A DNA stretch of 61,168 bases, counting the filler, from Basidiobolus ranarum (taxonomy: Eukaryota): the NCBI GenBank assembly GCA_040143965.1. It is 16 parts of 16 records of this genome, joined end to end, with 100 filler letters (N's around TTAATTAATTAA, not from the genome) between each part and the next. Parts side by side here need not be neighbours in the genome. Positions count along the whole stretch, not along the records: positions 26,860 to 30,588 come from JASJQH010009188.1; 15 more parts are not named here. One strand, 5' to 3'. The notes under the pieces are model-generated. The model worked only from the letters and a program-made list of their open reading frames with translations. It made no database searches and had not been told where the DNA came from. Positions 3,547 to 58,666 of the stretch are shown piece by piece (position 1 is the first letter of the stretch; every line of letters starts with the position of its first letter). The translations under genes were made by a program, and so were the position numbers.

Positions 3547-3741
3547 GACTTCGGTATCTCTGATATGAACAGGCCCAAAGACGAGTTAATGCAGCTTGTT
3601 CTAATCAACCCAACAAGACAACAGAATAGCCGATCAAGATTATCTATCCGTCTACTGAAATAAGGCTTACACAGTTATAATAGAGGCTGCTCCAACAAGA
3701 AAGCAATTCAATCCACACCAATATTCATGTAACCAGGTGTT

Positions 3742-3841
3742 NNNNNNNNNNNNNNNNNNNNNNNNNNNNNNNNNNNNNNNNNNNNTTAATTAATTAANNN
3801 NNNNNNNNNNNNNNNNNNNNNNNNNNNNNNNNNNNNNNNNN
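3742..3841. other. Artificial contig spacer (N44-TTAATTAATTAA-N44). Others at 7582-7681, 11421-11520, 15259-15358, 19094-19193, 22928-23027, 26760-26859, 30589-30688, 34417-34516, 38244-38343, 42071-42170, 45897-45996, 49719-49818, 53540-53639, 57356-57455
   Basis: Identical 100-bp linker with stops in all frames; the flanking contig lengths never increase along the window (3741 to 3713 bp). Confidence 0.99.
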
Positions 3842-4016
3842 CGAAGATATCAACAACGAAAGAATTCATGATAGACATGGCTTTGTTGGAGATACCAGTG
3901 TCGGGGTGGACTTGTTTCAATACCTTGTAAATATATGAGGCGTAGGATTCCTTACGGGAAGCCTTCTTGTGCTTGGTTTCCTTCTTCTCAGCGGATGGTG
4001 CGTCTTTAGGAGCCAT
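3842..4016 (-). CDS. HTB: Histone H2B, 3'-truncated by the contig end
   Basis: [38 protein letters not shown] is the conserved H2B histone-fold start. Confidence 0.95.
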
Positions 4017-4070
4017 GATGATTCAAAAGTGTGCAGTTGGATAATTTTGGGGGGATGGGGGGCTTACCCC

Positions 4071-4112
4071 TTATATAGCTATCAGAGCTACGCGTCTATA
4101 ATTGAAACGCGT
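4071..4112 (-). promoter_or_regulatory. H2B promoter: TATA-like box plus two MCB (ACGCGT) cell-cycle boxes
   Basis: ACGCGT at 4090-4095 and 4107-4112; CTATATAA on the minus strand at 4071-4078, upstream of the H2B ATG. Confidence 0.6.
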
Positions 4113-4424
4113 CCAGCCTTGTGATCACGTAATTTTGATTTCTAACAATAGTTGTTGCCAGTGATTAGATTATTCAGGTCAGTAAGATTTGGATTACGTG
4201 AATGATTGATATCGATTTCACCATTTGAGCTGAGCATATACTGTGATCATTACAAGTGATCTGAGATCCTATGACAACAATCGATCCTACCTGAAGTGAC
4301 ACATACATTCCATAAATTCAAATTGATTTAGGTGGAAAAAAAAATTCCCTTAGCATTCATTCATCAATATTACCACGGAACCACAATAATATAGAGTATT
4401 TCGTGTTTGAAGAATCCAAGTATT

Positions 4425-6633
4425 ATGAGTACTAATACTTCGCAGCAACTTGAACAATGCTTAGAATTAATAAAGCCACATACAACTGATGAATCAAAGT
4501 TTGCTGGATTATTGCTTATACCTCGTATTTTGCAACCTGACGACATACCAGCAATAGAAGCTGTCTTTGAAGCAATCGACTTCAAATTCTTAGAACGTCT
4601 ATTGAGAACAAGTAGGAAATCAATTTTCATTCTATGTTTAAAGACGATCCTAGTTAATTAACTGGTATATTACAACAATAGCAAAGCAAGTTCCTGAGGA
4701 GACTGACGCTATGAATTCAATCGCTGTAAACATTTTGGCTAGCTTCTCCATAAGTGTGAACTTGATAAACAGAGAGGAATTCATTGCACGCATCCCAACC
4801 CTAATGAAGACCCTTATATCAAGGTACTGCTTCTTTTCCGAGCCATTTTATTCTCTAAAATCCATTTTCATATCAAGTATTGAGCCAACATTCTTCTTTT
4901 CAGTCAAAATCTTGAAACTAGAAAGGAGATCGCAAGAATACTATTTAAACTTTCCGAAGGATCCGAGGGACTTGAGTTGATACTAAACAAATACAATTTC
5001 GATTACATTCTCCGTCTTTACGAAAGGCCAGAAGGCGAAGAGAATGGTAAATATAACCCAGCTTAAATACCCTTATACATTTAGTCCGTCTGACCGATAC
5101 ATCCACTTTAATCATTACAGAGGAAATTCAAACACTGGGACTGCAATTGATCAGTTTCAGTATTGATCAATGGAACGACTTTGTATATACCCAGAAGGTT
5201 GCCAATGACATACAACTGAAGAATACGCTTATAGAAACACTACCATTCATCCTTGAGACGCTGGGAGCTCAGTATCATCAACGTCATGACAAAGTGAAAT
5301 TCGAAATAATGAGCACTCTTATTCGATTGCTCGAGGAAATACCTCAAGAGGTAAGCAATGTTGATATATCGAGCGGTATACGCTTAGGTACATTAGGGTT
5401 TCTATAGCAATAACCAACCCCTGCTTTTCGTTGTTAGTTCACAAAGGCTATTGGTAGAAGTACTACTAGTTTCTACTCTTGGACTGGCTCCATTTCTTCC
5501 GGAACAAAAGACGTCCTTAGTCATAAACATGGTTCGTTTGAATGGATATTTATGCATTACACGCTACTACTCCCAAATACTAACCAGGCGTATCATAAAA
5601 ACACATAGCGTCGAAGCCTAAAGAGGATGGTCTCAAGTTGGTTGCATTAATGCTGCATCATTTCGGATGGGACTGGCTATTCTCTGTATCAGAGCATGAT
5701 AAAATTAAAAAAGAGGAAAAGGAGAAATTCGCAGCTTTAGTGGTGGAGTTGGCTTGTATTGAAATTAATGTTCGCCTAGACGAACTTTCGCAGGAATCCG
5801 TCTCTTTGGAGGATCTGGAGAGCAAACAAAGTGCCACTATTATCGACTCTTATGAGATTTTAGAAAAAGTCATTTCATTTTTATCCACGTATATGCAGGA
5901 CCAAGAAGATGAAGGAACCAGTAATCGAACCCCCATATTTTCAAATGAATCTTTGTTAAAGCTACATAATTCGTTGAAATCCACTTTTTCAGTTATTCTT
6001 GAGTTCATTCTTTTGAAACAGGTAAGCTTTCATTGCACTCTTCGACTTGCAAGCCCATCTGTCCAACTTTGTACTAACGTAAATCTCAGGCTGATTTTCC
6101 CTCAGTAAAATTTTTGGAAAACCATTTTCTATTGGCAACCATCCGTGTTCTCGCTTCGTGGTTAGCTGAAGACGATTCACTTCATAAGGATGCACTAGAA
6201 ATACTGGGATTGCTCATTGATGTTGCACGTTCAAGGTTAGTTTGTCAATTATACTCGTGATTTAGTAGACATTTCTGATGCTTTTCCATTCCGTATTTTA
6301 TGTAATCACAGCGATAACAACCAAGATGTGACGCCATTATTGTTTCTTTGTCCGGCATTTCTATATATGACAGAGTCACCAGAGATGCACGACAAGTTCT
6401 CCTCGTTAGGAGGACCCCGCATGCTGGTAGAAAATTTGATAAGCACTTTCGATCGACAAAAGAGCTATGTCTCGAAGAATCACTTGGCAAACTTACTTTA
6501 TCCATATGTACAACTACTATATAATATTGAATCACCAAAAAAATTCCCCCTCCATAGTGAAACGGAGAAAGAGACATTCTCGCGTATCATGGAGTTTATT
6601 AGAGAGAAGTTTGGGGGAGATTCGTTCAATTAG
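4425..6633 (+). CDS. Neurochondrin-like (ARM-repeat) protein, multi-exon
   Basis: N-terminus LEQCLELIKPHTTDESKFAGLLLIPRIL...FEAIDFKFLERLLRT matches the neurochondrin N-terminus. Later exons carry FGWDWLF, LACIEINVRLDE and IRVLASWLAEDD-like motifs. Short GT-AG introns; exact 3' end uncertain. Confidence 0.7.
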
Positions 6634-6859
6634 ATCTATTCCATGGATGAATAAAAGCAGTGTTATTAACTATCAGTACTTAGGTATCTTGATAGCGGAT
6701 TGGTTGATAAATAATCACAGACTAATTGATGTGAACTAAACTTTCCAATCATTAGCATAGGATGTTTGTAAATATTCGATAAATAATCCATTAAATTGTT
6801 GACTAATTTAAGGTTTTGAATTATATTTATGATATAAACCTTTGGACATACCAACTAAA

Positions 6860-7581
6860 TTACATGCTGTTTATGATTTCACTTAACCATAGATTTTCAC
6901 TGACTCTTGCTTGATATTGCTGTTTCAATCGATCCACTTCCTCTTTGATTTCATTGGCAGTCTTATTTTTAAGTTGGGTGATTTGTCCGAACTCTTTCAT
7001 TATCTCCTCAATCAATTTGGATCCTTGCTGAATATCTTCTTTACGATGCTTTGTTTTGGGTTGCTCTTTGCTGTCTTCCTCCTCAAAATCTTCCAACTCC
7101 ATTGCCTTACGTTTGGCGAGCTATAAAGTTGACATAAAGGAGTAATGTTAAGGTGAATTCAGAAGAAGAATGATGAGTCCAAATGGGTGGGTTATTTTAC
7201 TTACGTTGACTACAGTATTAGGGAAATTGGCCAATTCCGCTACGTGAATACCAAAACTCTGATCGCATACACCAGGGTTAACTTTGTACAGTAGTGTAAT
7301 TTCCCGTGATCCATTGATCTTTCCTAAATGTGCAGTGACATGTAAATTTTTGACACTATCAATTTGATTGGAAAGTGCAGTAAGTTCGTGGAAATGGGTT
7401 GCGAACAAACAAAAGCATCCGATTTCAGTGGCTATAAATCTAACAAGAATGGTGACATTAGTTAACCTAATTCAAATGAACCAGTTGACTAGTTTTATAT
7501 GCTTACTCCGAAATTGCCCAAGCAAGACCAAAGCCATCATAAGTACTGGTACCACGTCCAAGTTCATCCACAATAATCAGT
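6860..7581 (-). CDS. MSH2: DNA mismatch repair protein MSH2, C-terminal part (5'-truncated, two introns)
   Basis: [81 protein letters not shown]. Confidence 0.93.
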
Positions 7582-7684
7582 NNNNNNNNNNNNNNNNNNN
7601 NNNNNNNNNNNNNNNNNNNNNNNNNTTAATTAATTAANNNNNNNNNNNNNNNNNNNNNNNNNNNNNNNNNNNNNNNNNNNNAGA

Positions 7685-8399
7685 TTAGATCTCAGCAACG
7701 GTGAGGGAAGGAGGAAGGGATTGCTTAAGCTTCTCAGCCTTTTCAAGATCGGCAACAACGAGAGTGTAAAGATATTTGGAGCATCTGATCTTGATCTTGA
7801 CTTCAGCACCGTTCTTCTTGATACGAGCGGACTTAGCGTCCTTACGGCGAGCGATTTCAAGGAAGTTCTTGATGTCTTGGACTTGCTTAGGCTAAGAAAA
7901 CAAAATAAACCATATTAGCACTGATGTCGCATTTGCTATCTAAGTGGTCATCTATATCCATCCATCTCATTGTGTGAGAGAAATCAAGTCGAGTTGGATA
8001 GATTCACAGTAAGACATAGTCGATAGGAAATTTTAGGAAAGGCGCTAACCATATTAAAGAACGGCCAAGTAGGTCGATATGTCGAAAGAGAGAGTTTCTA
8101 CTGCCTTTGTTATCAACTTTTATTGCTCCCCAAACCCTTTTCCATGATTCGTTCAACTTGTGAAGTTTACCTGTGATACCAACCAATCATATCGCTCTCA
8201 TCAAATCTCCTTTTTTTATCGTGAAGTTGAAAATAATCGAGGAATACGGATTGGGTGGGTTGTTATTACAAAACCTGTCACTTCTGGATATATTTAGTGC
8301 ACCTAAAAAACATCGTCCTGACGATTCCTCAAGAGTTGAAATGGTCTCTAGTAAGATGGTGCCAAGCCGTTAGTTACTATGACCAGTGCTACTTACCAT
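7685..8399 (-). CDS. RPL38: 60S ribosomal protein L38 (eL38); ATG-only exon 1 (8399-8397), 505-nt intron, exon 2 (7891-7685)
   Basis: Manual translation of exon 2: [68 protein letters not shown]. It is preceded by a TTTTCTTAG acceptor, with ATG|GTAAGT at 8399-8391. The exon 1 assignment is inferred. Confidence 0.9.
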
Positions 8400-10769: not shown

Positions 10770-11056
10770 AATCCACTCACACTTTCTACAAATTGTTACC
10801 GATATGTAATACCATACCTATTGATTGAAAATCTCCTGTGTTCTATGGTGAGATCAGATACTTTTGTCGTAATATCCGCACCTTTCATTGTGAATAAAGT
10901 ATCATATGCTTTCTTCTTAATCACACCTAACTCATATTCTATTGATTGTTCTGTTCAGGGATATGGTGATAAGTAACTTAAAAAAGAATAATTAAGCTCA
11001 AACTTAAAGCCTTTTAGTCAAGGCAAGGTAAACACTAACAGAGTTCATCTGGTATC

Positions 11057-11309
11057 TGTTGTAATTAGCATTGCTTAAACACCTATATAGTCATATATAG
11101 CGTAGTGCTTAGTTATCTTATATTGAACTAAGATATTACCAATTATTCTCATGAGGAATTTAATAAGAATATTGACACCAACTTAGAAGTTCTCAGATAT
11201 GTAGAGTTTTCAAACCTGTACTAGAAGGCCCAAACTTTGCACACATGTTTCTGGGACTTTTCTTAACACATTCTATATGCTATTTTACCTACATCTTGAC
11301 AAAACTATA
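11057..11309 (+). mobile_element. Copia LTR family A (about 348 bp), partial, interrupted by an LTR-B insertion
   Basis: Starts TGTTGTAATTAGCATTGC...CACCTATATAGTCATAT; colinear with copies at 22063 and 58019 and the reverse copies. Confidence 0.85.
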
Positions 11310-11420
11310 TGTTGGAGGATCTTGACATAATGGGGGTAGACTTTGAGTATTAGAAGCAACTTATGATAGTGTGTTTTAGTTAGTTTATTCTTGAGAGTAT
11401 ATGGTGACTTATATAGTAGA
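11310..11420 (-). mobile_element. Copia LTR family B, partial (contig end)
   Basis: TGTTGGAGGATCTTGACATAATGGGGGTAGAC is shared with 49329-49569 and about 60478-60758. Confidence 0.85.
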
Positions 11421-21489: not shown

Positions 21490-22062
21490 ACAGTGTGTTC
21501 TCAAAGAAACCTTGACTTTTCAAATTCTTGTAGTAATATCCATCCAGCAAATTGGTAATACCATCAGCTTTGTGATGAGTACTTTGGTATTGGATCAATG
21601 ATCTATATTTGGGTCATTTCATCAAAACTTTAAGACAGGGAATCAACAGTATGTAAGCCAAATATGAGCAATATTTACCTGATTCAGTGATTGCCAATTG
21701 TTTGTAAATAGTACATGACTTCAGGTTTTTCAGATCATTGGTGAAAGGCAAGCAACCATTTGGACATGAAGGTAGTTTAATTGCTGAAGGTGTATAGGTC
21801 ATATGATTGACAAGTGTTTTACACTGGTACCAGGTCTGTGACAAGCAATAGTTGCCAAGCAACTGTGCTAAAAATGTAAGAAAACCAAGAAACACCTGGG
21901 TGCTAAGTTTGGATTGAACTCGCCACTCCTCAATAATCAAGCTTCTTCCTTTAGAGTAAGTGTTATGAGTGGGCTAATGTTTGCCAATAACAAAGAGTCC
22001 ATGACAAAGCCATTGTCTTCTTCCTCAACTTCTGATGTATTACCATCAGTACTGGAATAAAC
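21490..22062 (-). mobile_element. CACTA/EnSpm transposase 5' remnant
   Basis: EEWRVQSKLS...KLPSCPNGC...LKSCTIY...YLAYI.LIPCLK, homologous to 33616-34074 and 30689-31308. Confidence 0.8.
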
Positions 22063-22587
22063 TTTTGAAATTAGCATTGCCGAAACACCTATATAGTCAT
22101 ATAGAGCTTAGTACCTAGTTATCTTGTAATTCACTAAGATACTATCAATTATTCTCAATTGGAATTTACTTGGAATATTTTTACTAACATAGAGGTTCTC
22201 AGATATTTATATTTTTCAACTTGTGCTAGAAACCCCAAACTATGCACACATGTTCCTGGGACCTCCCTAACACATTCTACATGTTAGTTTGTTTATATCT
22301 TGACAAAACTATAAATGGCAACTTTCTACTCAATAAATCAATAAGTGAAAACCACCAATTTCTCTAATTCTCCAAACCACTTCCAATAGGCTCCTAAATA
22401 CTTTAACAGGTTATGAGCCCCAAGCTTGCACTCTCTATAATGTCTAATTCTCAAATTTATGGAACTTTACCTTCTTCTGAAAAATTGGATGGAACCAATT
22501 ATCAAGTTTGGAAAATTAAAATGAAAATGCTACTGCAAGAAAAAGGACTTTGGGACTATTGTACACCAACATACAAAGTTGCTTAAC
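22063..22587 (+). mobile_element. Copia family A 5' end: LTR 22063-22408, PBS 22409-22420, gag start 22440
   Basis: LTR ends AAATACTTTAACA, then GGTTATGAGCCC, then MSNSQIYGTLPSSEKLDGTNYQVWKIKMKMLLQEKGLWDYC (Copia gag N-terminus). Confidence 0.9.
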
Positions 22588-22619
22588 TTATGCTATATCT
22601 ATACAACTTGCATGAATAT

Positions 22620-26859: not shown

Positions 26860-28340
26860 AAACTCAATCAATCATCAAATATTCCAAGAATCTTATGGAA
26901 TGTTCCGGAAGATTGTAGAATTTTCCAGAAAATAATAGGGCTAATGTGGGTTAATACTGATAAATCTGAAATAATAGGGGATAATACTAATTGTGCAATA
27001 TAATTGGCTAGAAAATATGGGTTAGTCAAATATAGATATTAACATAGAAGCTGTGCAATAGGAATGATATGAGCTTGGAGTGGATATAAGTCAATCTGCC
27101 AGTAGGTAGCAATGCTGCCCCACTACAAGTTAATACAATGGACTTGTTCTCTGTGATAGTGCCAGATTGTGCTATATAAATCATATTATATAAACTATTC
27201 TAAAATTTATGTGGCACAATTTGGCACTATCCATCACCCTCTGGCATGATCAAGTTCAATCACGTTCACTCTGATCTATTGATCCAAGGTTTGATAAATC
27301 TTGGCACAATGGAACAAGTCCAATGGTGGGCTTTGATGGAGATATTGATAAAAACCTGTGTTGGGCATGAGCTAAACCTTGGTTATGAAGGAGTCTTTAA
27401 AAATATTCAGGAGAATATATCAAAGAGACTAGGGACTTGTGACAAATTAGCATTCAAGTAGTAATTGTGTAAATTTGAGCTATCTTTTTTGCACATGTGT
27501 GGATCCATAGATCTCTGAGATTGCAGCCAATCATGTGCAACTATCTTGCAAGATCTTGAAATTTCACTCCTGAAACTGAAAAAATTGATTAAAATCAAAT
27601 CTAACTTAACAATTTTATGATGGTAAGTAAATGGACAATCCCAAATGGATAAAAATTGTGAAAGTTTTCCTGCAATAACAATCCTCAAATTTCTGTTAGG
27701 GCCTTACAACTATGCCATAGGAGGACACATTAGCTAGAATAATAATGATGTGGAATGTCAAATTGCCTTTTAGTACAAGAAGATGATTAGTGCTGAGCAG
27801 AGCTATTGAGTTCATTAAAAGGAGATGCTTGCCATTATCTATTGGTGCAAATTGATGAGATGATATTTAGAACAAGGTAAGACTAGTGAGCCAATAGATC
27901 ATGCCCTTATGAAATATGTTGGCACCCTAATGGTGCTATCAAGAAGAATAACACAATGGTGTGACTACCTGCAACAGTTGGACCTGTTTTTTGTCTATTG
28001 CCCTGGAGAAGTCAATATAGTAGCAACTGGTTTCATTCAAGTTTACAAGACCAAGGAAATCAATGACAATTCACAGTCAGATTGGCCTATGCTCTTACCA
28101 TAGGTTTTGGAGCACCAAACACTTGCAGAGCCAGTACAGGAGGAAGTACAAAGTAACTCTGCTAAGAAAGAGAGATGATTGTTGCACAGAATGAAGCTCT
28201 TTACCATATTGTTGATGACCTACCAATATCTTAACATCAAAATCCCAAACATTTGGACTTGTTCACATGCTACATGATGGCTGTGAACAACTATAAATTG
28301 AAGCCAGTGTATCAAAAATTAAGACTTGCTTTGACAACAC
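26860..28340 (+). mobile_element. Heavily decayed Ty3/gypsy remnant: LTR-like start, RNase H, integrase traces
   Basis: NYAIGG, IAF..KKMISAEQSY, KEMLAII, LSRRITQWCDYLQQLD, YCPGEVNIVA RNase H motifs at about 27705-28030. Confidence 0.65.
27500..27701 (-). mobile_element. CACTA terminal segment (end type 2) ending ...CCTCAAATTTCTGTTAGGG
   Basis: Reverse complement of the repeats at 57154-57355 and 60967-61168. Confidence 0.75.
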
Positions 28341-29849
28341 TGTTGGTTCACCACTAATTGCTGAAAGAACCTTTGGGCTGCCAAATAGTACCAGCAAGTA
28401 GAAGCTTGAACCTCTTGAGACAGTACCTTTCAAAGTTGTTGGTGAATACCCATTCTGGATAAATCATGTAATGGATCAGCAAGGAATCAAGGAAAACACT
28501 TAGCCAATTGGACAGACTCGAAGCTGCCAAACTAGGAGATTTTAGTCCCCCAATTACATTGTAAATTAATATATGAGCAAAGTTCAACAGAAGCATACTC
28601 AAGAACATCAACTTCCAAAATAGCAACTTTGCCAGCTATTGAACAACCCTTGATAGAAAATTTGAATAGATTTATTAAAACAAGAGTATTGAAGGCAGAA
28701 CACCATAACAATTTGTATGCAATCATATGTAAGAACTACAAAGGGGCTATGCTGGCCATCATAAGCCATAATGCCACAATATTGCAATAAATGCAGTATT
28801 CTGAAGCAGCAAGTAAACAGATATAGAGTCACTCAACAATGATACAAGAACTGCAGAATGCTGTGCTTGAGCTATAGCAACATGCTGCTCCCTCTGTCCA
28901 CACTTGTATGCAATTTCAATCAATCCCACACCACACATTTGAATTTCCCATGACAATCCAGCAGAGTTGAATATGTGTTGGACCATTAAGACCACACAAT
29001 AACCCAAAATTGCTTAGGCACAGGAAAGTAGCAATCTCATGGGAAAACTGGCAAACCAAAAGACTCTAAATGTTAGAACTGCCATCACTTGCTCTGATGA
29101 TGAGTGCTTTAACATTATGGAAACTGTGCAAAATCTTGCTTAAAATTACCTCAATTTGAGCAAATTGTCAAAAAAGCAGAAACCAGGCATTACTCAGAAG
29201 GTTCTGAACCTATTTCATGAGGCTTATTCTGGGTTTCTTCAAGCAAATGGCAGTTGGGCTAGTATAGGCTTATTCATGAAACAACTCAAAAATGTACGCA
29301 ATTAGTGACTTGGAAAACAAAGAAAAGCAATTAAAGAAGTCCTCTTGGAGCAGGAAGTTTGTATACACAAGTGAAAAGCAAAGCAGTCAATGAATTTAGG
29401 CTCTACTGTTCTACTTACCAAATTCTTCACATCATTACAAAGATCTGAATTTCTAGGCTCCAATATATTGGCAAAAAAGCTTAATATCACCATGCAGCCA
29501 GGTACACCAGATGGAAGAGTGCCAAATTTGGAAGTGTATCCAACACTTAGCATCTCTCAGCAAGCCAAAACACCAGCAAACAAAACTCATGGCTCTCTGA
29601 CCTCAATTAGTACTTTTGAAAGTGTTGAATTAGCCCCAAACTTAAAGGCAAGCAAAATGCCACACAAACACCACCAACACCCTCATTACTGTCACACTAT
29701 AAGGACATATAAAAATAAAAAAAGTGCTTGAGGAGCAATTTGAAAAGTATGAAGGGAATATGCAGTGGAAGTATGCAGAAAGTGGCTGCAGAAGAAGTAC
29801 ATTCAAATTAACATTTAGTTTGATATTGACCTTGCAGATACCTGGGATG

Positions 29850-30131
29850 TGTTGAAAGTCTGGTGACTTGTTGTACAAGCCATAACTCCCAAGGAGGAAA
29901 ATATTGAGTATGGTGACTACATCTGAACACAAAGTCTAAGGCCAATCAGTTACTTGTAAAGCTGAAATGCCAAAGTACCATACATTGACAGACTAGGTTA
30001 AGGTTCCCTAGCAATACAGGCATAGCATATAAGGACTGGTAGCTCAGTGATTAGAGCACCTTGCTAGAGTGAAGGAGGTTGCAGGTTTAAATCCTGGCCA
30101 GACCAATATTTCTCCCTGAATAATTTCAACA
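29850..30131 (+). mobile_element. Copia LTR family C, 5' LTR (282 bp)
   Basis: Perfect 8-bp inverted termini TGTTGAAA/TTTCAACA, followed directly by the PBS GGTTATGAGCCC (30132-30143) and gag; contains GGCCAATCAG and CATATAA. Confidence 0.8.
30033..30105 (+). tRNA. tRNA-like sequence (73 nt, probably a pseudo-tRNA) embedded in LTR-C
   Basis: GGACTGG TA GCTC AGTGATTA GAGC A CCTTG CTAGAGT GAAGG AGGTT GCAGG TTTAAAT CCTGG CCAGACC A. Canonical cloverleaf spacing with one mismatch each in the acceptor, anticodon and T stems; A-box and a decayed B-box present. Nominal anticodon AGA but no long variable arm. Confidence 0.8.
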
Positions 30132-30163
30132 GGTTATGAGCCCCATGTTTTAACCTTTACAGC

Positions 30164-30588
30164 ATGACAGAAACCACTACTACCACCTTTATTAACTCAA
30201 GTGTTGAAAAGCTTGATGGAGAAAATTACAATTTCTGGAAGTTCAAGATGCAAGTCATGCTGGAAGACAGGGAGCTTTGGGATGTAGTCTCTGGAGATAA
30301 AAAGGAACCTTCTGACCCTTCTTTATTGGAAGCTTACAAGAAAAGAGACAAGATGGCCTTTAATGTCATTTGTCAAAGTTTGAAGGATTCACAACTTGTG
30401 AATATTCAACATGCAAAGACTTCCCATCAAGCTGGGACTATATTGGAAGAGTATTATGAAGCAAAGAGTCTTGCTGATAGACTCTTTCTCAGACAAAATT
30501 TCTTCAATATAAAGATGGAACACTCTGAAAGCATGGTTACTCATATTGCAAATGTGAGATCTTTGGCAAAACAACTGGAAAATATTGG
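30164..30588 (+). CDS. Copia gag (Retrotran_gag_2/UBN2-like), open to the contig end
   Basis: VEKLDGENYNFWKFKMQVMLEDRELWDVVSG...RDKMAFNVICQSLKDSQL...LFLRQNFFNIKM. Confidence 0.9.
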
Positions 30589-30688
30589 NNNNNNNNNNNN
30601 NNNNNNNNNNNNNNNNNNNNNNNNNNNNNNNNTTAATTAATTAANNNNNNNNNNNNNNNNNNNNNNNNNNNNNNNNNNNNNNNNNNNN

Positions 30689-31992
30689 TCTCAAAGAAAC
30701 CTTGACTTTTCAGATTCTGGTAGTGATATCCATCAATTATATTGATAATACCATCAGCTTTATGGTGAGTACTTTGGTATTGGATCAATGATCTATATTC
30801 AGAAGATTTCATCAAAACTTTAAGACAGGGAATCAACCATATGTAAGCTAAATATGAACAATATTTACCTGATTGAGGGATTGCAAATTGTGTGCAAACA
30901 GTACATGACTTCAGGTTTTTCAGATCACTGGTGAAAGCCAAACAACTATTTGGACATGAGGTAGCTTAATTACTGAAGGATTATAAGCATACAATTGACA
31001 AGTGTTTTCCACTTGCACCAGGTCTGTGGCAAGCAACAGTTGCCAATCAACTGTGGTAAAAGTATAAGAAAACCAATAAAGACCTGGTCGCTAAGCTTGG
31101 ATTGAACTCTCCACTCCTCAATAATCAAAGCCGGTTCCTTTAGAGTAACTGTTATGAGTGGACTAACATTTGGTAATAACAAATAGTTAGTCTCAAAACC
31201 ATTGTCTTCTTCTTCAACTTCTGATATACTACCATTGGTACTGGAATAACCAAGGTCAACATCCAGCAGCAGGTCCTCAAAGTTGTCTGGACTTACAGGT
31301 TTGACCAAAGCTGCATTTTGACCTACATCATTCAGGTCATATAGCTATGGTAACTTCACAGTATCTTGACTTTCAGCAGTGTTACCAAAAACTTGAGGCC
31401 AACTACAGTCAGTGGAGTCAATGGGTAAAACTAAAGTCCATTTTGTGCACTTATTACTGTTGTTATACACCAGGCTTTGTGCATCTGGTGGCTTTGTACA
31501 GTGGCCATGCCGGTGATTATTTTTTCTATGAAGCCTTGGGCTTTAATAGCACAAGAATTTGTGACAGTAATAGCATGCATTGTTTCAACATTTGTGTTGT
31601 GACATGAGAAGGATATTGTAGATAAAAGAACACCTCTCATGTAAGGGTGGTATTTTAGTATAGCCCATTAATATCATCAGCTGATCCTGAGATGGTGTCA
31701 CAGATGAGTCATCTGGGGTTTTACAAGATATTTCCAGTAATGGATGGCAATTTTGGTTAATCATTAGCTGTTTCTGAGCAATTTTGTTACACCAAGTTCA
31801 CCATCTGAAAATTTCAATGCCATTCAAAAATGTTGTAAATCTAAATCAAAATTGGCTTCAAAGCCAAAGCCTGCTGGCAAGAAAGGAAAAAAACCACCAA
31901 GAACAGAGGACTTGATTGATGAGCAGTCTAGCAATCCACTATCTACTTTGGATGGCATTAACATGCCAGAAACTAACTCAAGTAATGATGAA
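30689..31992 (-). mobile_element. CACTA/EnSpm remnant: transposase 5' part and upstream region
   Basis: Homologous to 33590-34160: NVSPLITVTLKEPALIIEEWRVQSKLS, KSCTVCTQF, DGYHYQNLKSQGFFE. Confidence 0.8.
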
Positions 31993-34161
31993 CCCTGAGA
32001 AAAATAAAATTGATTTGCTCCAGATTGGATCCACACTCCAAAATAGCAAAACCATCAGAGAACCATAACACTATTGGTGCTTGCATTCTGCCAGGGATTT
32101 TGATGGTGTAACAATGGTTTCTTGATGGTACTTTGATGGTGTTCATTCATGTTAAAATATTGATCTTTGAATTTGGCTTGTGTTATTCACTATCCATCAA
32201 TTTTTGCAAAAAAATAATTTTCTAATGGCAAATTAGTGGGCTTACTGCAGTAGGAATTTGAGTTAATATGCATGCCTTTATTTAGATACTTTAGGCTTTG
32301 TATTTCAGCCATAATTATGATGAAAAAGATATATGAATCTTGTTGTGTTTAGTCTCTACATATGCACATACCTGATTGATTGGACATAACTCAACAGCAT
32401 CAATATGCTTTACCAGCAAACTAATGGTGAGCCATTGTTAATCAAATTAGCATATAGTAATACTGACAATTTGACAGAGAGCATCATTTCACCATAAGTG
32501 CACTCCATTAAGAACTCCCAGAATGTGTAGCAAGGCCCTATAATCTCTAAGCATTATGAGAGATGCAGCAGGGAAATGTATTGAATACTGGCATAAATTC
32601 AGTCTATCTTCTTTAAACCAGTAATAAAGTTTTTTGTATCCAATTACAATATCTTTGCACAGACTCTGTATCTGCCTGAGATCTGCCAATGTGAGTTGAT
32701 GCCATAAGAATATGTTAACAATATCCACAAATAACGCCTAATGTTGCCAATACTTATGAGGCAAAATTCTTTTCAAAATTCCACTTGAATATATACAAAT
32801 CCAATACTTCCAGTCTTTGCATTTGGATAAATGTCTAGATGAGTGTATATAGATGGGAGTCCTGGTAAGATATGAGGGTAGCTTGATTTTTTTCAAGAAT
32901 TTTCCCAATTGATTCAAACTTTGATTGTATCTTGAATTGTCATTCATATTGAATTTTCCACTATATAGCTGAGTAAGTAGTATCAGAATGTTGTTGAATA
33001 GTAAATGCATAGTGCCTAATGAGAAGCTCTGGCTCCCGCTGACCCCCTTAGCAATATAATCTTAGGCTTATGGCTAATACCAAGTTTAATTTTAGACTGA
33101 CTGTTTGGTGAATGGATATCAGTGAGCATATTGAAATCTGACCCAGCTCTTGACAGTAAAAGCATGAAGTTTGGTGTTGTATTTGGATAGTAGTAATGCT
33201 TATTCCTGTTAGAGTAAACTCCAATGATTTGACAAAATCTGCAGCAAGATAATGCATTGTGCCTGCAAAAACCTTGTAGTTTACTGATGGCAGGAGTGTC
33301 AACCATACATCCAACAATATTAGCTTTAATAAAATATTTACCCATCTGAACCCCATTAGATAACCATTCAAATTCCACAATCACAGGCTCCAAGAAGCTA
33401 TCTATAAGCACTGGTGATTTAAGTCCAGATATGATGGATAGTATCAAATTATCATGACTCTTATACCACTCATAAGGAGGAAGATTTAAATTGATTATAG
33501 TTATTGGCCAGCAAGCCTTTCTCATAGGATATTTGTTTAGTGAGAAACCATCCAGAGCCAATGCAAATATATGATCGTATGTGTTCTCAAAGTAACCTTG
33601 ACATTTCAGATTCTGTTAGTGATATCCATCAAGTATATTGGTAATACCATCAGCTTTATGGTAAGTACTTTGGTATTGGAGCAATGATCTATATATAGGC
33701 AATTTCATCAAAACTTCACAACAGGGAATCAACCATATGTAAGCCAAATATGCATAATATTTACCTGATTCAATGATTGCCAATTGTGTGCAAACAGTAC
33801 ATGACTTCAGGTTTTTCAGATCACTGGTGAAAGCTAAACAGCCATTTGAACATAAAGGTAGTTTAATTACTGAAGTACTATAAGTCATACCGTTGGCAAG
33901 TGTTTTCCACTTGTACCAGGTCTGTGGCAAGCAACAGTTGCCAATCAACTGTGGTAAAAGTGTAAGAAAACTAATAAACACCTGGTTGCTAAGATCAGAT
34001 TGGACTCTCCACTCCTCAAAAATCAAAGCTGGTTCCTTTAGAGTAAGTGTTATGAGTGGACTAATGTTTGCCAATCACAAAGGGTTTGTAACAAAACCAT
34101 TGTCATTGTCTTCAACTTCTGATATACTACCATCAGGTCTGGAATAACCAAGGTCAACATC
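31993..34161 (-). mobile_element. CACTA/EnSpm DNA transposon: Tnp2/Transposase_21-family transposase (degenerate) and terminus type 1 at 31993
   Basis: LALDGF, CWPITIINLNLPP, IISGLKSP..IDSFLEPVIVE, GCMVDTPAISKLQGF..HNALSCCRFC, MHLLFNNI, LPSYLTRTP, KDWKYW. Begins CCCTGAGAAAAATAAAATTGATTTG, like 36947. Confidence 0.88.
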
Positions 34162-42170: not shown

Positions 42171-42534
42171 CTTTGCACACCTGCTTCTGGGACCTTCCTT
42201 AACACATTCTACATATTAGTTTGCTTACATCTTGACAAAATTATAAATGTCAACTGAATACTCAGTAAATCAATAAGTGCAAACCACCAATTTCTCTATT
42301 TTCTCCAAACCACTTCCAACAGGCTCTCAAAATACTTTAATAGTAGCTGTCAAGAAGTAGATAAACCAACATGTGGATTACAAAGTCTGGGGTCTTTTGG
42401 ACAAGTTTGAGAACTTCCAAGTTGGTCTCAATATTGAGCGTAAAATTCCTCATGAAGATATTGAATAACAACTGTGATATTTAGGTAGCTAGCTATATGA
42501 CTATGTAGATGCTTAAGCTATGTCATTTTCAACA
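42171..42534. mobile_element. Copia LTR-A fragments: plus-strand 3' half (42171-42342) and a reverse decayed piece (about 42400-42534)
   Basis: CTTTGCACAC...AAATACTTTAATA and GAGAACTTCCAAGTTGG...TTTTCAACA match family A. Confidence 0.75.
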
Positions 42535-49818: not shown

Positions 49819-52800
49819 TGTACATTGTTGGTCTCCTCGTACGATCCCAAGACAAAGAAGATCACTCACACCTCCACTAACGCTTGTCTTGCTCCGCTCT
49901 GTGCTATGGATGGAAAGCATGTGATCACCATTGAAGGAATCGGAAACACCAAGAACCCACATCCCATTCAAGAGAGAATTGATCTCGCTCATGGTTCACA
50001 GTGTGGTTTCTGTACCCCAGGAATTGCGATGTCACTCTATGCTCTGTTGAGAAACAATCCGAATCCTACCGAGCATGATATCGAAGAGGCTTTCGACGGA
50101 AATCTCTGTCGTTGCACAGGCTACAGACCGATCTTGGATGCAGCCAAGACCTTTGCCACTCCAGCTGGTGGTTGTTGTGGAGGAGATAAGGCTGCAGGGG
50201 GTTGTTGTCAAGATCAGAAAGTGGAGGTGAAGGTGGAGAAACCTCAGATCAGAGGATGTGGAAAAGAAGGAGGTTGTTGTCAGGATAAGCAAGAGTATGA
50301 TGATAAGCTGAATTTCGCCGTCGATACCACCAAGTTTGAGAAAGTCAAAGTCAAAAAGTACGATCCTTCCCAGGAACTCATCTTCCCACCAGGTCTGATC
50401 AAGTATGCTCACAGTGAGAGGGAGAGCGTGGATGGAGGTAAGAGTGGATTGAAGCCATTGGCATTCTCCAACAACAGGTACAAATGGTATCGTCCACTTG
50501 AGCTTGAGGAACTTTTGCAGCTCAAGGCCGAATACCCAGATGCAAAGATCATTGCTGGCAACTCTGAGGTTGGAATTGAAATCAAATTCAAGCAGATCTA
50601 CTACCCAGTGATGATCTATGTTAGCGATATCGAGGAGCTCAAGAAGGTTGAGTACAGTGAGGAGGGAATCACGTTCGGAGCCAACATTACACTTTCGAAC
50701 TTTGAGCGGGTGCTGAAGGGGGCGGTAGAGAAGTATGAGCCAAGTAAAACTGAGAACTTCAAATCGTATCTCAGCAACCTTCGATGGTTTGCTGGACGTC
50801 AGATTCGAAATGTGGGTACTATTGGTGGTAACATTGTTACCGCATCGCCCATCTCAGATTTGAACCCAGTGTTTGTCTCCTCCCGTGCCATCATGATTGT
50901 TGGATCTAAGGAAGGTGGCTTACGTTCCATAAAAATGACCGAGTTCTTCCTCGGCTACCGCAAGACCGCACTTCGTCCCGGAGAGGTGGTCGTCTCATTG
51001 TTCGTACCTTTTACCAAGGAACATGAATACTCACAGTCATTCAAACAAGCCAAAAGAAAGGATGACGATATCGCCATCGCCAATGGAGGTCTTCGCGTCA
51101 AGTTCGAGAAGAGCGGAGAGAAGCTCCTTGTCAAAGATGTAGTACTTGCTTTCGGAGGTATGGGACCCACCACACTCCAAGCCAAATCAGCCATGGAGTT
51201 TCTTGTTGGGAAGGAGTGGGGTTATCGCGAGGACTTCTTGGAGGTTGTCAAGAGACTCGACTATGATCTTCCCATTCAGTTCTCATCACCCGGAGGCATG
51301 GCGGAGTATCGTAAAGCACTTGCAGCCAGTTTCTTCTACAAGTTCTGGTGCAACGTCTCCAACAGGCTCGGCCTTGACGTTGAGGAAGCCAAGTTTGCAG
51401 AAGAAGTGGAGGATATTGAGAGAGCTGTCTCTCAAGCCTCCCAGTCGATGCCAGTACGCCCCGAGAGTATTGTAGGCAAGGGCGTGGCACACCTGAGCGC
51501 CCTGAAACAAGTCACCGGTGAGGCGATCTACGTGGATGACATGCCATCATATGGTGGAGAACTCTACGGAGCCTTGGTGACTTCGAAGAGAGCACACGCT
51601 AAGATCTTGAGTGTTGATGCCACTGCAGCATTGGAGTCTGATGGGGCTGTGGCTTTCTATTCAGCCAAGGATGTCCCCGGATCGAACACCTGGGGTCCCG
51701 TGTTCCAAGATGAAGAGATCTTCGCTACCACCGAGGTATTCTTCTTGGGTCAGATTATTGGCATCGTAGTGGGCAAGACCCAAGACCAAGCCCAAGCGGC
51801 AGCCAGAATGGTGAATATCGAGTACGAAGAGCTTCCCCATATTCTCACCATTGAAGAGGCCATTGAGAAGGAGTCCTATGTTCCAGCACCACGTGAGATC
51901 ATCCGGGGTGATGTGGATGAAGCATTCAAGAACTGCGACTTTGTCTTCGAGGGTGAAACCAAGATCGGAGGTCAGGAACACTTTTACCTCGAAACCAACG
52001 CTTGTATTGTCGTTCCTAAGGAAGGAGATGAGATGGAGATCTTCAGTAGTACCCAGAATCCAACTGAGTCACAGCACGTGGTTGCCAAGGCACTCGGGTG
52101 CTCCGACAGCAGAGTGATCATTCGTACCAAGCGTCTTGGCGGTGGCTTCGGTGGTAAAGAGAGTAGAACGGTGATGCTTACGGCTCCTTTGGCTGTGGCA
52201 GCTCATCACCTTCGCAAGCCCATCCGAATCATGCTTGACCGTGACGAAGATATGCTGATTTCGGGCCAGAGACACCCGTTCCTTGGAAGATGGAAGGTAG
52301 GAGTGAATAAGGATGGTAAACTACAAGCTCTGGATGTTCGAGTGTACGCTAATGCCGGTTGGTCTGCTGACTTGACCATGGCAGTTGTGGAGCGTGCCAT
52401 GTCGCACAGTGACAATTGTTACTGGATACCGAATGTCCGTACAGTTGGCAAAGCTTGCATCACCAACATTCACTCGAATACAGCCTATCGTGGATTTGGT
52501 GGGCCACAGGGTATGATCATTTGCGAGAACTGGGTGCATGAGGTTGCTGATCATCTTAACATCCCAGTGGAGAAATTCCGCGAGATCAATATGTACAAGG
52601 AGGGTCAGATCACCCACTTCAACCAGAAGCTTACCGACTGGCATATCCCCATGATGTGGGATAAGATCAAGGAGAGTTCCAACTACGACACCAGACGTCG
52701 TGCGGTTGATGAGTTCAATCAGGCACACACATTCAAGAAGAGAGGACTTGCCATCATTCCGACCAAGTTCGGTATTTCGTTCACCGCCAAGCATCTCAAC

Positions 52801-53539
52801 CAAGCAGGTGCTCTGGTCCATGTCTACACCGATGGCTCTGTTCTTCTTACCCACGGAGGTATTGAGATGGGCCAAGGTATTCATACAAAGATGGCACAAA
52901 TCGCAGCTGAGACCTTGAATGTTCCACTCGATAGAGTGTATGTTAATGAGACGGCAACTAACACTGTTGCTAACAGTAGTCCCACAGCTGCATCTGCTGG
53001 CTCCGACTTGAATGGTCAAGCAGTGAAGGCTGCATGTGAACAAATTGCGGAGAGGTTAAAGCCTTACCGTGAGAGAATGCCCGAGGCCAACATCGCCGAA
53101 CTTGCCAAAGCAGCCTACTTTGACCGAGTCAATCTCTCGGCCAATGGGTACTACAAGACACCTGATATCGGGTATGTTTGGGGAAAGAACGAGGGCATGA
53201 TGTTCTTCTACTTTACCCTTGGTGTGGCTGTCTCTGAGGTAGAGATTGATGTGCTCACCGGTGATCACACCATCATTAGCACCGACATTCTCATGGATGT
53301 TGGTAAATCGCTTAACTACTCCATTGATCTTGGTCAAGTAGAGGGTGCTTGGTTACAAGGAGCCGGGTGGTCAACTATGGAGGAGACTCTCTTCTTCCCC
53401 AATGGTATGCTATTCACACGAGGCCCAGGTACGTACAAGATCCCAGGCTTCCGTGATATCCCCCAGAGCTTCCGAGTGGATTTGTTGGATGGGGTCGAGT
53501 ACAATCAGCTCAAGACCATTCATGGCAGTAAAGGCATCG
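49819..53539 (+). CDS. XDH: Xanthine dehydrogenase (2Fe-2S, FAD and molybdopterin domains), truncated at both ends, no intron in this span
   Basis: GSQCGFCTPG, GNLCRCTGYRPI, FAGRQIRNVGTIGGNI, GGQEHFYLET, RLGGGFGGKES, TAYRGFGGPQ, HGGIEMGQG, SPTAASAGSD, GQVEGA. Confidence 0.97.
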
Positions 53540-58018: not shown

Positions 58019-58366
58019 TGTTGAAATTAGCTTTGCCTAAACACCTATATAGTCTTATATAGCTTAGTACTTAGTTATCCTATAATTCACTAAGATATTA
58101 TCAATTATTCGCAATTGGAATTTACTTAGAATAATTTTACCAACTTAGAAGTTCTCAGATATATAGATTTTTCAAACTTGTGGTAGAGGTCCCAAACCTT
58201 GCACACAGGTTCCTGAGACCTTTCTTAACACACTCTACATGCTTATTTGCATACATCCTGACAAAACTATAAATGTCCACTTTCTACTCAATAAATCAAC
58301 AAGTGAAAATCACCAATTCTTCTAATTCTCCAAATCACTTAAAACAGGCTCCCAAATACTTTGATA
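58019..58366 (+). mobile_element. Solo LTR-A (348 bp) with a 5-bp TSD CTTAC
   Basis: CTTAC at 58014-58018 and 58367-58371; starts TGTTGAAATTAGC. Confidence 0.92.
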
Positions 58367-58666
58367 CTTACTTGGGGTCAGAGTTTGCATTAGGTCCCAT
58401 AAGTCTCTATGAATAAGATCAAATAAATGCGTGACTCTGCTAGCTCCTTCTTTTGGAAATTGTTTTCTGCTAAGTTTCCCTTGAATACAGCTTTCATATT
58501 TGGTAATACCTGAGGGCTCAAGATCCATTCCAGTACAGAGGCTATATTTTTATAATAGTTCCACACTATTATAGCTTAAATGACCCAAGCATTGATGCCA
58601 AGTCATCAAGTTTCCAGAAGAATTTTTTGCAAAGTTAGAAGCTGTCTCAATGGCCAGTGCAATATC

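What the first reader, a model, noticed from the sequence alone, without database searches (positions are those of the whole stretch)
29850..30588. Gag-coding Copia retrotransposon with a whole tRNA-like gene inside its LTR
Seen: a 282-bp LTR (TGTTGAAA...TTTCAACA) holds a 73-nt cloverleaf (30033-30105) in the gag-sense orientation. It begins right after CATATAA and ends 26 nt before the LTR end. No T4 run occurs until 30148-30151, past the PBS, and an open gag follows at 30164. There is no SINE-like tail or evident TSD around the tRNA. The anticodon arm (nominal AGA, no Ser-type variable arm, G-G mismatch) is the least tRNA-like part, while A-box/B-box spacing is retained. Known: small-RNA-derived Pol III promoters in LTRs are described for non-autonomous TRIM-type elements (Cassandra with 5S; from recall, Helenus/Ajax with 5S/tRNA), and TFIIIC-bound tRNA genes act as chromatin barriers. 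Inference: a protein-coding Copia lineage captured a tRNA gene as an internal Pol III promoter, an anti-silencing insulator or an RNA-processing module. I am not aware of this being described for coding fungal Copia elements, but I cannot search to confirm.
Basis: partly seen in the sequence, partly recalled or inferred. Interest (0 to 1): 0.82.

Follow-up and report, generated by a model that had tools for sequence, protein, structure and literature searches.

The report
tRNA-bearing LTR joined to Copia gag
A retrotransposon end in a Basidiobolus fungus carries a tRNA-shaped module inside its long terminal repeat, a design so far described only for tiny non-coding elements, yet here it runs straight into a protein-coding gag gene whose far end is lost at a contig break.

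Summary
Positions 30033-30105 (+) match Rfam tRNA (45.1 bits). The match sits 26 nt before an LTR end (30131). That end is anchored by a primer-binding site, and an open Copia gag follows (30164-30588, PF14223). The tRNA is not a fresh capture. The LTR has the architecture of Helenus, the tRNA-bearing TRIMs of Kojima 2024, and a metagenomic relative (L018) shares the tRNA-like part, tail, PBS and leader. The host is a Basidiobolus species (Zoopagomycota), outside the fungal groups named in the paper's text and Table 1.

Two limits apply. The window is a chain of unlinked ~3.7-kb contigs. The element's contig ends inside gag, so the 3' LTR, pol and the target-site duplication are unseen.

A metagenome scan gave 27 Helenus-like loci. 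Thirteen are TRIMs and four have Copia coding sequence behind the tRNA-bearing LTR. In the two structures (three contigs) where the start of the 3' LTR is readable, it is a different, tRNA-less LTR.

So a native coding lineage (0.38), a TRIM x Copia hybrid (0.32) and an assembly chimera (0.17) all remain open. Across 31 copies the cloverleaf stems covary, which hints at selection on the RNA fold. Verdict: new variant of a known kind, moderate interest.

The parts
26860..30588 (.). The contig that holds the finding. The pieces on either side in the window are unlinked contigs.
   Evidence: N44-TTAATTAATTAA-N44 linkers recur about every 3.83 kb, and piece lengths fall monotonically
29850..30131 (+). 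Putative 5' LTR of 282 bp (TGTTGAAA...TTTCAACA), of the Helenus type
   Evidence: Sequence. The PBS follows directly. The same 8-nt start occurs in a second Copia LTR family validated by a TSD. Single copy in the window.
30026..30032 (+). TATA-like CATATAA directly before the tRNA-like part. Its TATAA core starts 103 nt before the LTR end.
   Evidence: The tRNA-less LTR-B family has TATAAA 98 nt before its LTR end. The promoter role is an inference.
30033..30105 (+). tRNA-like cloverleaf with nominal anticodon AGA and a short variable region. It has mismatches in three stems and no ARAGORN call.
   Evidence: Rfam RF00005 45.1 bits, E 2.1e-6; ARAGORN 0; minimum-energy fold is a cloverleaf
30040..30051 (+). 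A-box region TAGCTCAGTGAT. The GG that is nearly invariant in the 31-copy alignment reads GA here.
   Evidence: Alignment A2. Box A motif as given in PMC10886601 section 3.5.
30084..30094 (+). B-box region GGTTTAAATCC. It departs from the GGTTC that Kojima reports as conserved.
   Evidence: PMC10886601 section 3.5
30106..30131 (+). LTR tail after the tRNA-like part, with no T4 run. Relative to L018, a 14-nt insertion splits the T run.
30132..30145 (+). Primer-binding site GGTTATGAGCCCCA. Its reverse complement carries CAT in a 7-nt loop context, which is the anticodon-loop type of tRNA-iMet priming.
   Evidence: Identical PBS at 22409-22422 and in the Helenus-like loci. Assignment to the tRNA-iMet anticodon loop follows PMC10886601 section 3.6.
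30148..30151 (+). First T4 run, 17 nt after the LTR end. It is a possible weak Pol III stop.
   Evidence: The terminator role is an inference.
30164..30588 (+). Copia gag, first 141 codons, open to the contig end
   Evidence: PF14223 E 2.9e-25, DUF4219 E 1.7e-9. The nearest library proteins are only 40-49% identical.
30589..30688 (.). Artificial linker between contigs, not an in-place gap
22063..22408 (+). Comparison: LTR-B, a tRNA-less Copia LTR in the same assembly. It has the same termini, PBS (22409-22422) and leader length, and is followed by a decayed gag from 22440.
   Evidence: Rfam finds no tRNA there.
58019..58366 (+). Comparison: solo LTR-B flanked by CTTAC on both sides (58014-58018 and 58367-58371)

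Best explanation
This is the 5' end of a gag-bearing Copia-superfamily element whose own LTR is of the Helenus type. I read it as a large, coding or at least gag-retaining relative of the tRNA-bearing TRIMs, in a Basidiobolus genome.

Shown:
- The LTR order is U3 (183 bp), then a 73-nt tRNA-like cloverleaf, then a 26-nt tail. This is followed by a PBS of the tRNA-iMet anticodon-loop type, a 32-nt leader and gag.
- The cloverleaf fills the slot between a TATA-like motif and the LTR end. That is the slot where an ordinary Copia LTR has R-U5.

Inferred mechanism:
- In the small TRIM relatives, the A and B boxes drive RNA polymerase III. The cloverleaf is the terminal repeat R, with the T run in the tail as the stop in the 3' LTR.
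- In this copy the Pol III signals are weakened. The B box reads GGTTT, the conserved GG in the D loop reads GA, and a 14-nt insertion splits the T run.
- A T4 run lies just past the PBS, and the coding RNA is far too long for Pol III.
- So gag must be expressed from a Pol II transcript that starts downstream of the TATA-like motif, inside or just after the cloverleaf. The cloverleaf then serves mainly as structured R/U5 RNA.

Whether the same LTR closes the 3' end is not visible.
For: - The tRNA-like hit, LTR termini, PBS and open gag are all present as described.
- Host: the xanthine dehydrogenase in contig 49819-53539 is 90% identical to Basidiobolus meristosporus and 83% to B. ranarum.
- The same LTR design occurs in 27 of 55 metagenomic loci.
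- L018 aligns with the window from about 40 nt upstream of the tRNA-like part to 28 nt past the LTR end, including AACCTTTA in the leader. It diverges 4 nt before the gag ATG. So LTR, PBS and leader are inherited together.
- U3 is 183 bp. Its TATA-like motif sits at nearly the same distance from the LTR end (103 nt) as TATAAA in the tRNA-less LTR-B of the same assembly (98 nt). The leaders are 32 and 31 nt.
- The tail lacks the T4+ run that 14 of 19 listed Helenus-like tails have.
- gag is stop-free over 141 codons.
- Coding Copia bodies lie behind tRNA-bearing LTRs in 4 of the 27 loci. One is L042, with a 1005-aa ORF carrying gag, Pol_BBD, integrase and RVT_2.
Against: - No 3' LTR, pol, PPT or TSD can be seen. 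The contig ends at 30588, and no genome or read data were available.
- In both metagenomic structures where the start of the 3' LTR is readable (L003, and L036 with its near-twin L035), that LTR is unrelated and tRNA-less.
- The similarity of L003 and L042 to their TRIM relatives stops 12-14 nt into the PBS. That is the signature of a hybrid, not of a parent.
- PMC10886601 reports that a rust Copia sharing its internal part with a Helenus has an unrelated LTR.
- No close gag relative exists in the protein collections, so the copy number and integrity of the family are unknown.
- TATA-like strings are common in DNA with 36% G+C.
Confidence: 0.38

Rival explanations
1. Hybrid element. A Helenus-type TRIM LTR (with PBS, perhaps leader) is joined to the body of an ordinary Copia whose 3' LTR is different.

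Likely route (inferred): the TRIM and its Copia helper are packaged in one particle. The plus-strand strong-stop DNA of the TRIM anneals through the shared PBS to the minus strand of the Copia. The product has unlike LTRs and still integrates, because both LTR types carry the same termini. Ectopic recombination would give the same result. Such a copy is a dead end, not a lineage.
For: - L003: a 176-bp tRNA-bearing LTR, 98.9% identical to the LTR of TRIM L031. Similarity ends 12 nt into the PBS, and then a gag-pol body follows. After the PPT comes an unrelated LTR starting TGTTGATATTGAG.
- L036/L035: the same Copia family (90% identity over 1261 nt). The tRNA-bearing LTR is followed by 93 nt of TRIM internal sequence and then RT onward. 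In L036 the body ends in a ~500-bp tRNA-less LTR.
- L042 compared with TRIM L040: similarity ends 14 nt past the LTR, and that LTR is only about 120 bp.
- In the window, a tRNA-less Copia family has the same PBS, the same TGTTGAAA terminus and the same leader length. A compatible partner therefore exists in this genome.
- PMC10886601: a rust Helenus shares internal sequence, but not the LTR, with Copia-9_PGr.
Against: - Similarity between the window and L018 continues past the PBS through the leader, unlike the L003 and L042 cases.
- The candidate TSD of L036 does not match (ATCTG against ATAAG), so integration as one unit is not shown.
- The window LTR is long, with 183 bp of U3 and a TATA-like motif.
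- No TRIM with this LTR was seen in the 61 kb available.
Confidence: 0.32
2. Assembly chimera. A short-read assembler threaded from a TRIM or solo LTR into a Copia gag through sequence the two share (PBS plus leader, perhaps the start of gag).
For: - The record is a chain of ~3.7-kb contigs, and the contig ends inside the element.
- TRIMs can share the first ~200 bp of their partner's internal region (PMC10886601).
- The window and L018 share the leader.
Against: - The exact sequence shared by the two Copia families seen in the window is only about 18 nt around the PBS.
- Comparable junctions occur in independent metagenome assemblies (L003, L035, L036, L042).
- No reads could be examined.
Confidence: 0.17
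3. One-off insertion of a tRNA gene or tRNA-derived SINE into the LTR of this single copy.
For: Only one copy is visible in the window.
Against: - There is no SINE body or tail, and no duplication around 30033-30105.
- The tRNA-like part, tail and LTR end form one homologous unit with L018.
- The same layout recurs in 27 loci.
Confidence: 0.03
4. A 5'-truncated Copia lying by chance, or through tRNA-gene targeting, next to a host tRNA pseudogene.
For: Some LTR elements integrate near Pol III genes (recalled general knowledge, not tested here).
Against: - Only 26 nt lie between the tRNA-like part and the PBS, and they end in the LTR terminus TTTCAACA.
- The matching TGTTGAAA lies 183 nt upstream.
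- The layout is conserved in other loci.
Confidence: 0.02

Closest known systems
Helenus (TRIMp3), tRNA-bearing TRIMs; Kojima 2024, PMC10886601 (abstract, sections 3, 4 and figure/table section read; supplements closed)
   Same: - A tRNA-derived sequence sits near the 3' end of the LTR.
- The anticodon does not fit the isotype.
- The PBS is complementary to the tRNA-iMet anticodon loop, the dominant fungal type.
- The termini are of the Copia type.
   Different: - Helenus is defined as non-coding and 311-1263 bp long. Here gag starts 32 nt after the LTR.
- The host is Basidiobolus (Zoopagomycota). Among fungi, the paper's text and Table 1 name Pucciniales and three Agaricomycetes.
- The B box departs from GGTTC.
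- The second LTR, PPT and TSD are not visible.
Copia-9_PGr / LTR-1_PTrit pair (PMC10886601, section 3.6 and Figure 4 legend)
   Same: A Copia and a tRNA-bearing TRIM share the PBS and the 5' internal sequence.
   Different: In that pair the LTRs are unrelated, and the Copia has no tRNA-like LTR. Here the tRNA-bearing LTR directly abuts the coding body.
Cassandra, TRIMs with 5S rRNA in the LTR (as described in PMC10886601 introduction; the primary paper was not read)
   Same: A small-RNA gene with an internal Pol III promoter lies inside the LTR of an LTR retrotransposon.
   Different: - The module is 5S, not tRNA.
- Cassandra is from plants.
- It is non-coding.
- No 5S match was found here.
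Ty5 and Drosophila copia priming (as cited in PMC10886601 section 3.6)
   Same: The PBS is complementary to the anticodon stem-loop of initiator tRNA-Met rather than to its 3' end.
   Different: As far as I recall, those elements have no tRNA-like sequence in their LTRs.
TR-GAG, non-autonomous LTR elements that keep only gag (named in PMC13570524, passage seen; details recalled)
   Same: This would fit if the element keeps gag but no pol.
   Different: It cannot be tested, because the contig ends in gag. As far as I recall, TR-GAG elements are not known to carry tRNA-like LTRs.

Membership tests
Helenus / TRIMp3 | tRNA-derived sequence with A and B boxes inside the LTR | tested here: met
   Rfam tRNA 45.1 bits at 30033-30105. 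The A-box region is present. The B box reads GGTTT instead of the conserved GGTTC.
Helenus / TRIMp3 | Short non-coding element (TRIM, up to about 1.3 kb) with no protein-coding capacity | tested here: not met
   An open Copia gag of at least 141 codons starts 32 nt after the LTR.
Helenus / TRIMp3 | The same tRNA-bearing LTR at both ends | not testable with these tools
   The contig ends at 30588. No genome or reads were available.
Helenus / TRIMp3 | PBS next to the 5' LTR; in fungi mostly complementary to the tRNA-iMet anticodon loop | tested here: met
   GGTTATGAGCCC sits directly after the LTR. The identical string is in the Helenus-like loci. The assignment to tRNA-iMet rests on PMC10886601, not on a tRNA gene from this genome.
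Helenus / TRIMp3 | PPT and 5-bp TSD | not testable with these tools
   The 3' end is missing. The left flank is GGATG.
Ty1/Copia LTR retrotransposon | Copia-type gag | tested here: met
   PF14223 E 2.9e-25, PF13961 E 1.7e-9
Ty1/Copia LTR retrotransposon | pol in the order protease, integrase, RT, RNase H | not testable with these tools
   The contig ends in gag.
Ty1/Copia LTR retrotransposon | LTR with TG...CA ends and short inverted termini | tested here: met
   TGTTGAAA...TTTCAACA. The same start occurs in LTR-B, whose solo copy has a 5-bp TSD.
Functional tRNA gene | Anticodon consistent with isotype features, intact conserved positions, terminator T run just downstream | tested here: not met
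   - Anticodon AGA with a 5-nt variable region, and three stem mismatches.
- No ARAGORN call.
- The GG and GGTTC positions are changed.
- There is no T4 before 30148.
tRNA-derived SINE | tRNA head followed by a body and an A-rich or simple-repeat tail, flanked by a TSD | tested here: not met
   The LTR end lies 26 nt after the cloverleaf. There is no tail and no duplication.
Cassandra / Ajax | 5S rRNA-derived sequence in the LTR | tested here: not met
   No 5S match in the window, even at E up to 5

The most novel reading that the evidence does not exclude
A polymerase II-transcribed, protein-coding Copia lineage of an early-diverging fungus natively carries a tRNA-shaped module as its R-U5. 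That would make it the long-sought autonomous parent or partner type of the Helenus TRIMs. The module would be kept for its RNA fold (processing, packaging or strand transfer), not only as a Pol III promoter. This is suggested by compensatory changes in the acceptor, D and T stems across 31 copies, while the anticodon loop varies freely.
Probability: 0.3. Interest if true: 0.75.

Novelty: new variant of a known kind. Interest (0 to 1): 0.52.

Why it matters
The one paper on tRNA-bearing LTRs treats them as a feature of tiny non-coding elements. It argues that their autonomous helpers should not share such LTRs, because polymerase III cannot make a full-length coding RNA.

A tRNA-bearing LTR physically joined to Copia coding sequence was seen here in Basidiobolus and in four metagenomic contigs. 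Either reading is informative:
- If the LTR is native, it identifies the parent type of these TRIMs.
- If the copies are hybrids, they are direct sequence evidence that TRIM and Copia RNAs meet in the same particle. That would be the first concrete trace of who mobilises Helenus.

The finding also extends this LTR design to a fungal phylum that the paper's text and Table 1 do not list. In addition, the stem covariation raises the testable idea that the RNA fold, not only the promoter boxes, is under selection.

Tried and rejected
Routes that were closed or empty:
Copy number, the 3' LTR and the TSD in the source genome therefore could not be tested.
- Earlier findings: none for this genome or sequence. 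The word search returned only unrelated items.
- Protein searches with gag: none at 'longer' or 'near' lengths. The exhaustive search gave 3342 hits at E 0.001 or better, but the best identity was 40-49%. The names of ten top hits gave no host clue.
- Viral contigs: gag and the L042 polyprotein found nothing. The DNA pattern gave one phage chance hit, L001.
- Genome contigs: four bacterial chance hits, L057-L060, judged from record titles only.
- Of the 55 metagenome loci, 28 were set aside. Thirteen were scanned with Rfam and showed no tRNA-like LTR, or showed true tRNA genes. Fifteen were not scanned and were judged from the printed flanks as tRNA-gene neighbourhoods or phage.

Checks that gave nothing usable:
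- L024 and L028 have no transposon ORFs downstream.
- Taxonomy of the metagenomic loci: the Atlas search and Pfam on L031 ORFs gave no answer.
- The finding's LTR and LTR-B share only their termini, so the tRNA-like part cannot be framed as an insertion into LTR-B.
- T-run avoidance in TRIM internal regions: 0 T4+ against 3 A4+ in 821 nt of 7 TRIMs. L026 and L007 were dropped because the script failed to find their next LTR. The sample is too small to carry weight.

Full report
**Setting**

The window is not one stretch of chromosome. Runs of 44 N flanking TTAATTAATTAA recur about every 3.83 kb, and the 16 pieces between them fall steadily in length from 3741 to about 3.7 kb. The record is therefore a chain of size-sorted contigs.
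- The finding lies in the piece 26860-30588, and its gag is cut by the end of that contig.
- The neighbouring pieces say nothing about linkage.
- A 1240-aa intron-free xanthine dehydrogenase in another piece (49819-53538) is 90% identical to Basidiobolus meristosporus and 83% to B. ranarum. The next hits are at 58% or less. The assembly is therefore from a Basidiobolus species (Zoopagomycota), assuming the record is one genome.
- Repeat families shared between pieces support that assumption.

**Observation**

- The 282-bp stretch 29850-30131 runs TGTTGAAA...TTTCAACA.
- Rfam's tRNA model matches 30033-30105 (+) over its full length. The score is 45.1 bits against a gathering score of 29, with E 2.1e-6 for the window. 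It is the only such hit, even at E up to 5.
- CATATAA precedes the match directly, and 26 nt follow it to the LTR end.
- The first T4 run is at 30148-30151.
- The frame from the ATG at 30164 is open for 141 codons and matches Copia gag (PF14223 E 2.9e-25, DUF4219 E 1.7e-9).

The cloverleaf is imperfect.
- ARAGORN does not call it.
- Three stems have a non-standard pair, and the anticodon AGA comes with a short variable region.
- The folding energy is ordinary (z -0.97), although the minimum-energy fold is the cloverleaf.

**LTR boundaries**

The LTR is inferred from a single copy.
- The 3' edge is well anchored. The next bases, GGTTATGAGCCCCA, are the same primer-binding site that follows a second Copia LTR in the window at 22409-22422.
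- The 5' edge is supported by the inverted 8-mer.
- It is also supported by that second family ('LTR-B', 22063-22408), which starts with the same TGTTGAAA. LTR-B has a solo copy at 58019-58366 flanked by CTTAC on both sides.
- A weaker alternative start, TGTTGAATTAGCC, lies at 29625.
- Either way the cloverleaf is inside the LTR.

**What is known**

Kojima 2024 (PMC10886601; I read the abstract, sections 3 and 4 and the figure/table section) defines Helenus.
- Helenus elements are TRIMs of 311-1263 bp with a tRNA-derived sequence in both LTRs.
- Among fungi they are reported in Pucciniales and three Agaricomycetes.
[quoted passage not shown] - It also reports that Copia-9_PGr shares internal sequence, but not the LTR, with a Helenus.

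Full-text searches found no description of a coding element with a tRNA-bearing LTR, and none for Basidiobolus. The supplementary tables could not be opened.

**Relatives**

I scanned the metagenome contigs for a B-box motif followed within 12-42 nt by CA plus the PBS. This returned 55 loci.
- In 27 of them, Rfam or the printed flanks show the same layout as the window: tRNA-like part, short tail ending in AACA, then the PBS.
- The other 28 were set aside. Thirteen were scanned without a tRNA-like LTR or with true tRNA genes. Fifteen were not scanned and were judged from their flanks.

The 27 Helenus-like loci divide as follows:

| Class | Loci |
|---|---|
| TRIMs, with a second LTR within 400 nt | 13 |
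| Copia coding sequence downstream on the same strand (L003, L035, L036, L042) | 4 |
| More than 800 nt downstream but neither of the above (L019, L024, L028; for L024 and L028) | 3 |
| Contig ends within 260 nt | 7 |

L018 is the closest to the window.
- BLAST gives 70% identity over 132 nt.
- The alignment runs from about 40 nt upstream of the tRNA-like part through the tail, PBS and 28 nt of leader.
- It ends 4 nt before the window's gag ATG.

The module is therefore an inherited LTR component, not a one-off capture.

**The coding comparanda**

L042 is a whole 3789-bp contig.
- The tRNA-like part is at 25-97, the LTR ends at 113, and the PBS follows.
- A 1005-aa ORF then carries gag, Pol_BBD, gag_pre-integrase, integrase, SH3 and RVT_2.
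- Its LTR is 97-99% identical to the ~120-bp LTRs of TRIM L040, but similarity stops 14 nt past the LTR.

L003 has a 176-bp tRNA-bearing LTR that is 98.9% identical to the LTR of TRIM L031.
- Similarity stops 12 nt into the PBS.
- A gag-pol body follows. After the PPT comes an unrelated LTR beginning TGTTGATATTGAG.

L036, with its near-twin L035, belongs to the same Copia family (90% identity over 1261 nt).
- It has lost gag to integrase and keeps 93 nt of TRIM internal sequence.
- L036 ends in a ~500-bp tRNA-less LTR with long inverted arms.
- Its flanks, ATCTG and ATAAG, do not match.

So in the two structures where the start of the 3' LTR is readable, the LTRs are unlike. A break in similarity at the PBS is what a plus-strand transfer between a co-packaged TRIM and Copia would give. 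That mechanism is my inference.

**Features of the module**

I aligned 31 tRNA-like copies (A2) and counted pairs on the cloverleaf.
- 90.0% of cells pair, against 77.2% in shuffles (0 of 500 shuffles reach it).
- With slid partners, at most 51% pair.
- 15 of 21 pairs show changes on both sides.
- The acceptor, D and T stems pair at 93-99%. The anticodon stem pairs at 73%, and the anticodon itself varies.

There are caveats. The copies were picked with a tRNA model, they are related to each other, and some families could stem from separate tRNAs.

T runs were also counted.
- A T4-T6 run lies between the tRNA-like part and the LTR end in 14 of 19 listed loci.
- The window has none, because 14 nt split the run relative to L018.
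- The internal regions of 7 TRIMs have 0 T4+ against 3 A4+ in 821 nt. Two TRIMs were dropped for a script failure.
- The coding bodies carry 6 (L042) and 7 (L003) T4+ runs.

**In-window comparison**

LTR-B has no tRNA-like part.
- It has TATAAA 98 nt before its end, AATAAA after that, the same PBS, and a 31-nt leader before a decayed gag.
- The finding's LTR has its TATA-like motif 103 nt before the end and a 32-nt leader.
- Geometrically, the cloverleaf fills the R-U5 slot.
- The two LTRs share only their termini.

**Weighing the explanations**

Three explanations survive.
- Native gag-bearing element with this LTR at both ends (0.38). The long U3, the TATA geometry, the weakened Pol III signals and the leader shared with L018 favour it.
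- TRIM x Copia hybrid (0.32). The comparanda favour it.
- Assembly chimera (0.17). It cannot be excluded without reads.

Two further explanations are nearly excluded by the conserved layout: a one-off tRNA or SINE insertion (0.03) and chance adjacency to a host tRNA gene (0.02).

**Verdict**

The claim of a coding lineage is open. The finding is a new variant of a known kind, in a new host phylum. It also gives a useful lead on how Helenus elements relate to Copia.

Noticed in passing
window 1-61168: The window is a chain of 16 size-sorted contigs of ~3.7 kb, joined by N44-TTAATTAATTAA-N44 linkers. Any reading of 'neighbouring' features across a linker is void.
   Followed up: yes
window 22063-22589, 58014-58371, 11056-11420, 42200-42336: A second Copia family (LTR-B, ~346 bp, no tRNA-like part) has the same termini and PBS. 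One copy carries a decayed gag, and one is a solo LTR with a CTTAC target-site duplication.
   Followed up: yes
window 29625-29637: TGTTGAATTAGCC, almost the LTR-B start, lies 225 nt upstream of the finding's LTR. It may be the stub of an older LTR into which the element inserted.
   Followed up: partly
window 21494-22060, 30684-31263, 33016-34161: Three copies (83-88% identical) of a transposase-bearing repeat on the minus strand, with Pfam Transposase_21. They lie in three different contigs.
   Followed up: partly
window 49819-53538: Intron-free xanthine dehydrogenase ORF, 90% identical to Basidiobolus meristosporus. The best hit is 1360 aa, so both ends are cut by the contig.
   Followed up: partly
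L003 (minus-oriented 3472-7872), L036 (minus-oriented 4213-6975), L035: These metagenomic Copia elements have a tRNA-bearing 5' LTR and an unrelated ~500-bp 3' LTR with ~200-bp inverted arms. The L003 contig folds back on itself at that LTR, probably an assembly artefact.
   Followed up: partly
alignment A2, columns 1-9; window 30026-30032: The three LTR families found next to coding bodies (window, L042/L040, L003/L031) have a TATA-like string at or just before the 5' end of the cloverleaf (CATATAA, CTATATGG, CATATAG). The other families in A2 do not. This is a post hoc observation on a small sample.
   Followed up: no
window 30050-30051 and 30086: The window copy has GA where the other 30 copies in A2 have GG or AG in the D loop, and T where most have C in the T loop. 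By standard tRNA numbering (recalled), these two positions pair in the tRNA elbow, so the two changes could be compensatory. It is a single case, and both changes are transitions.
   Followed up: no
window 27152-27239: A hairpin-like stretch hits plant microRNA models on both strands, far below their thresholds (33.7 against 90.8 bits). It is probably an inverted repeat of a small transposon.
   Followed up: no
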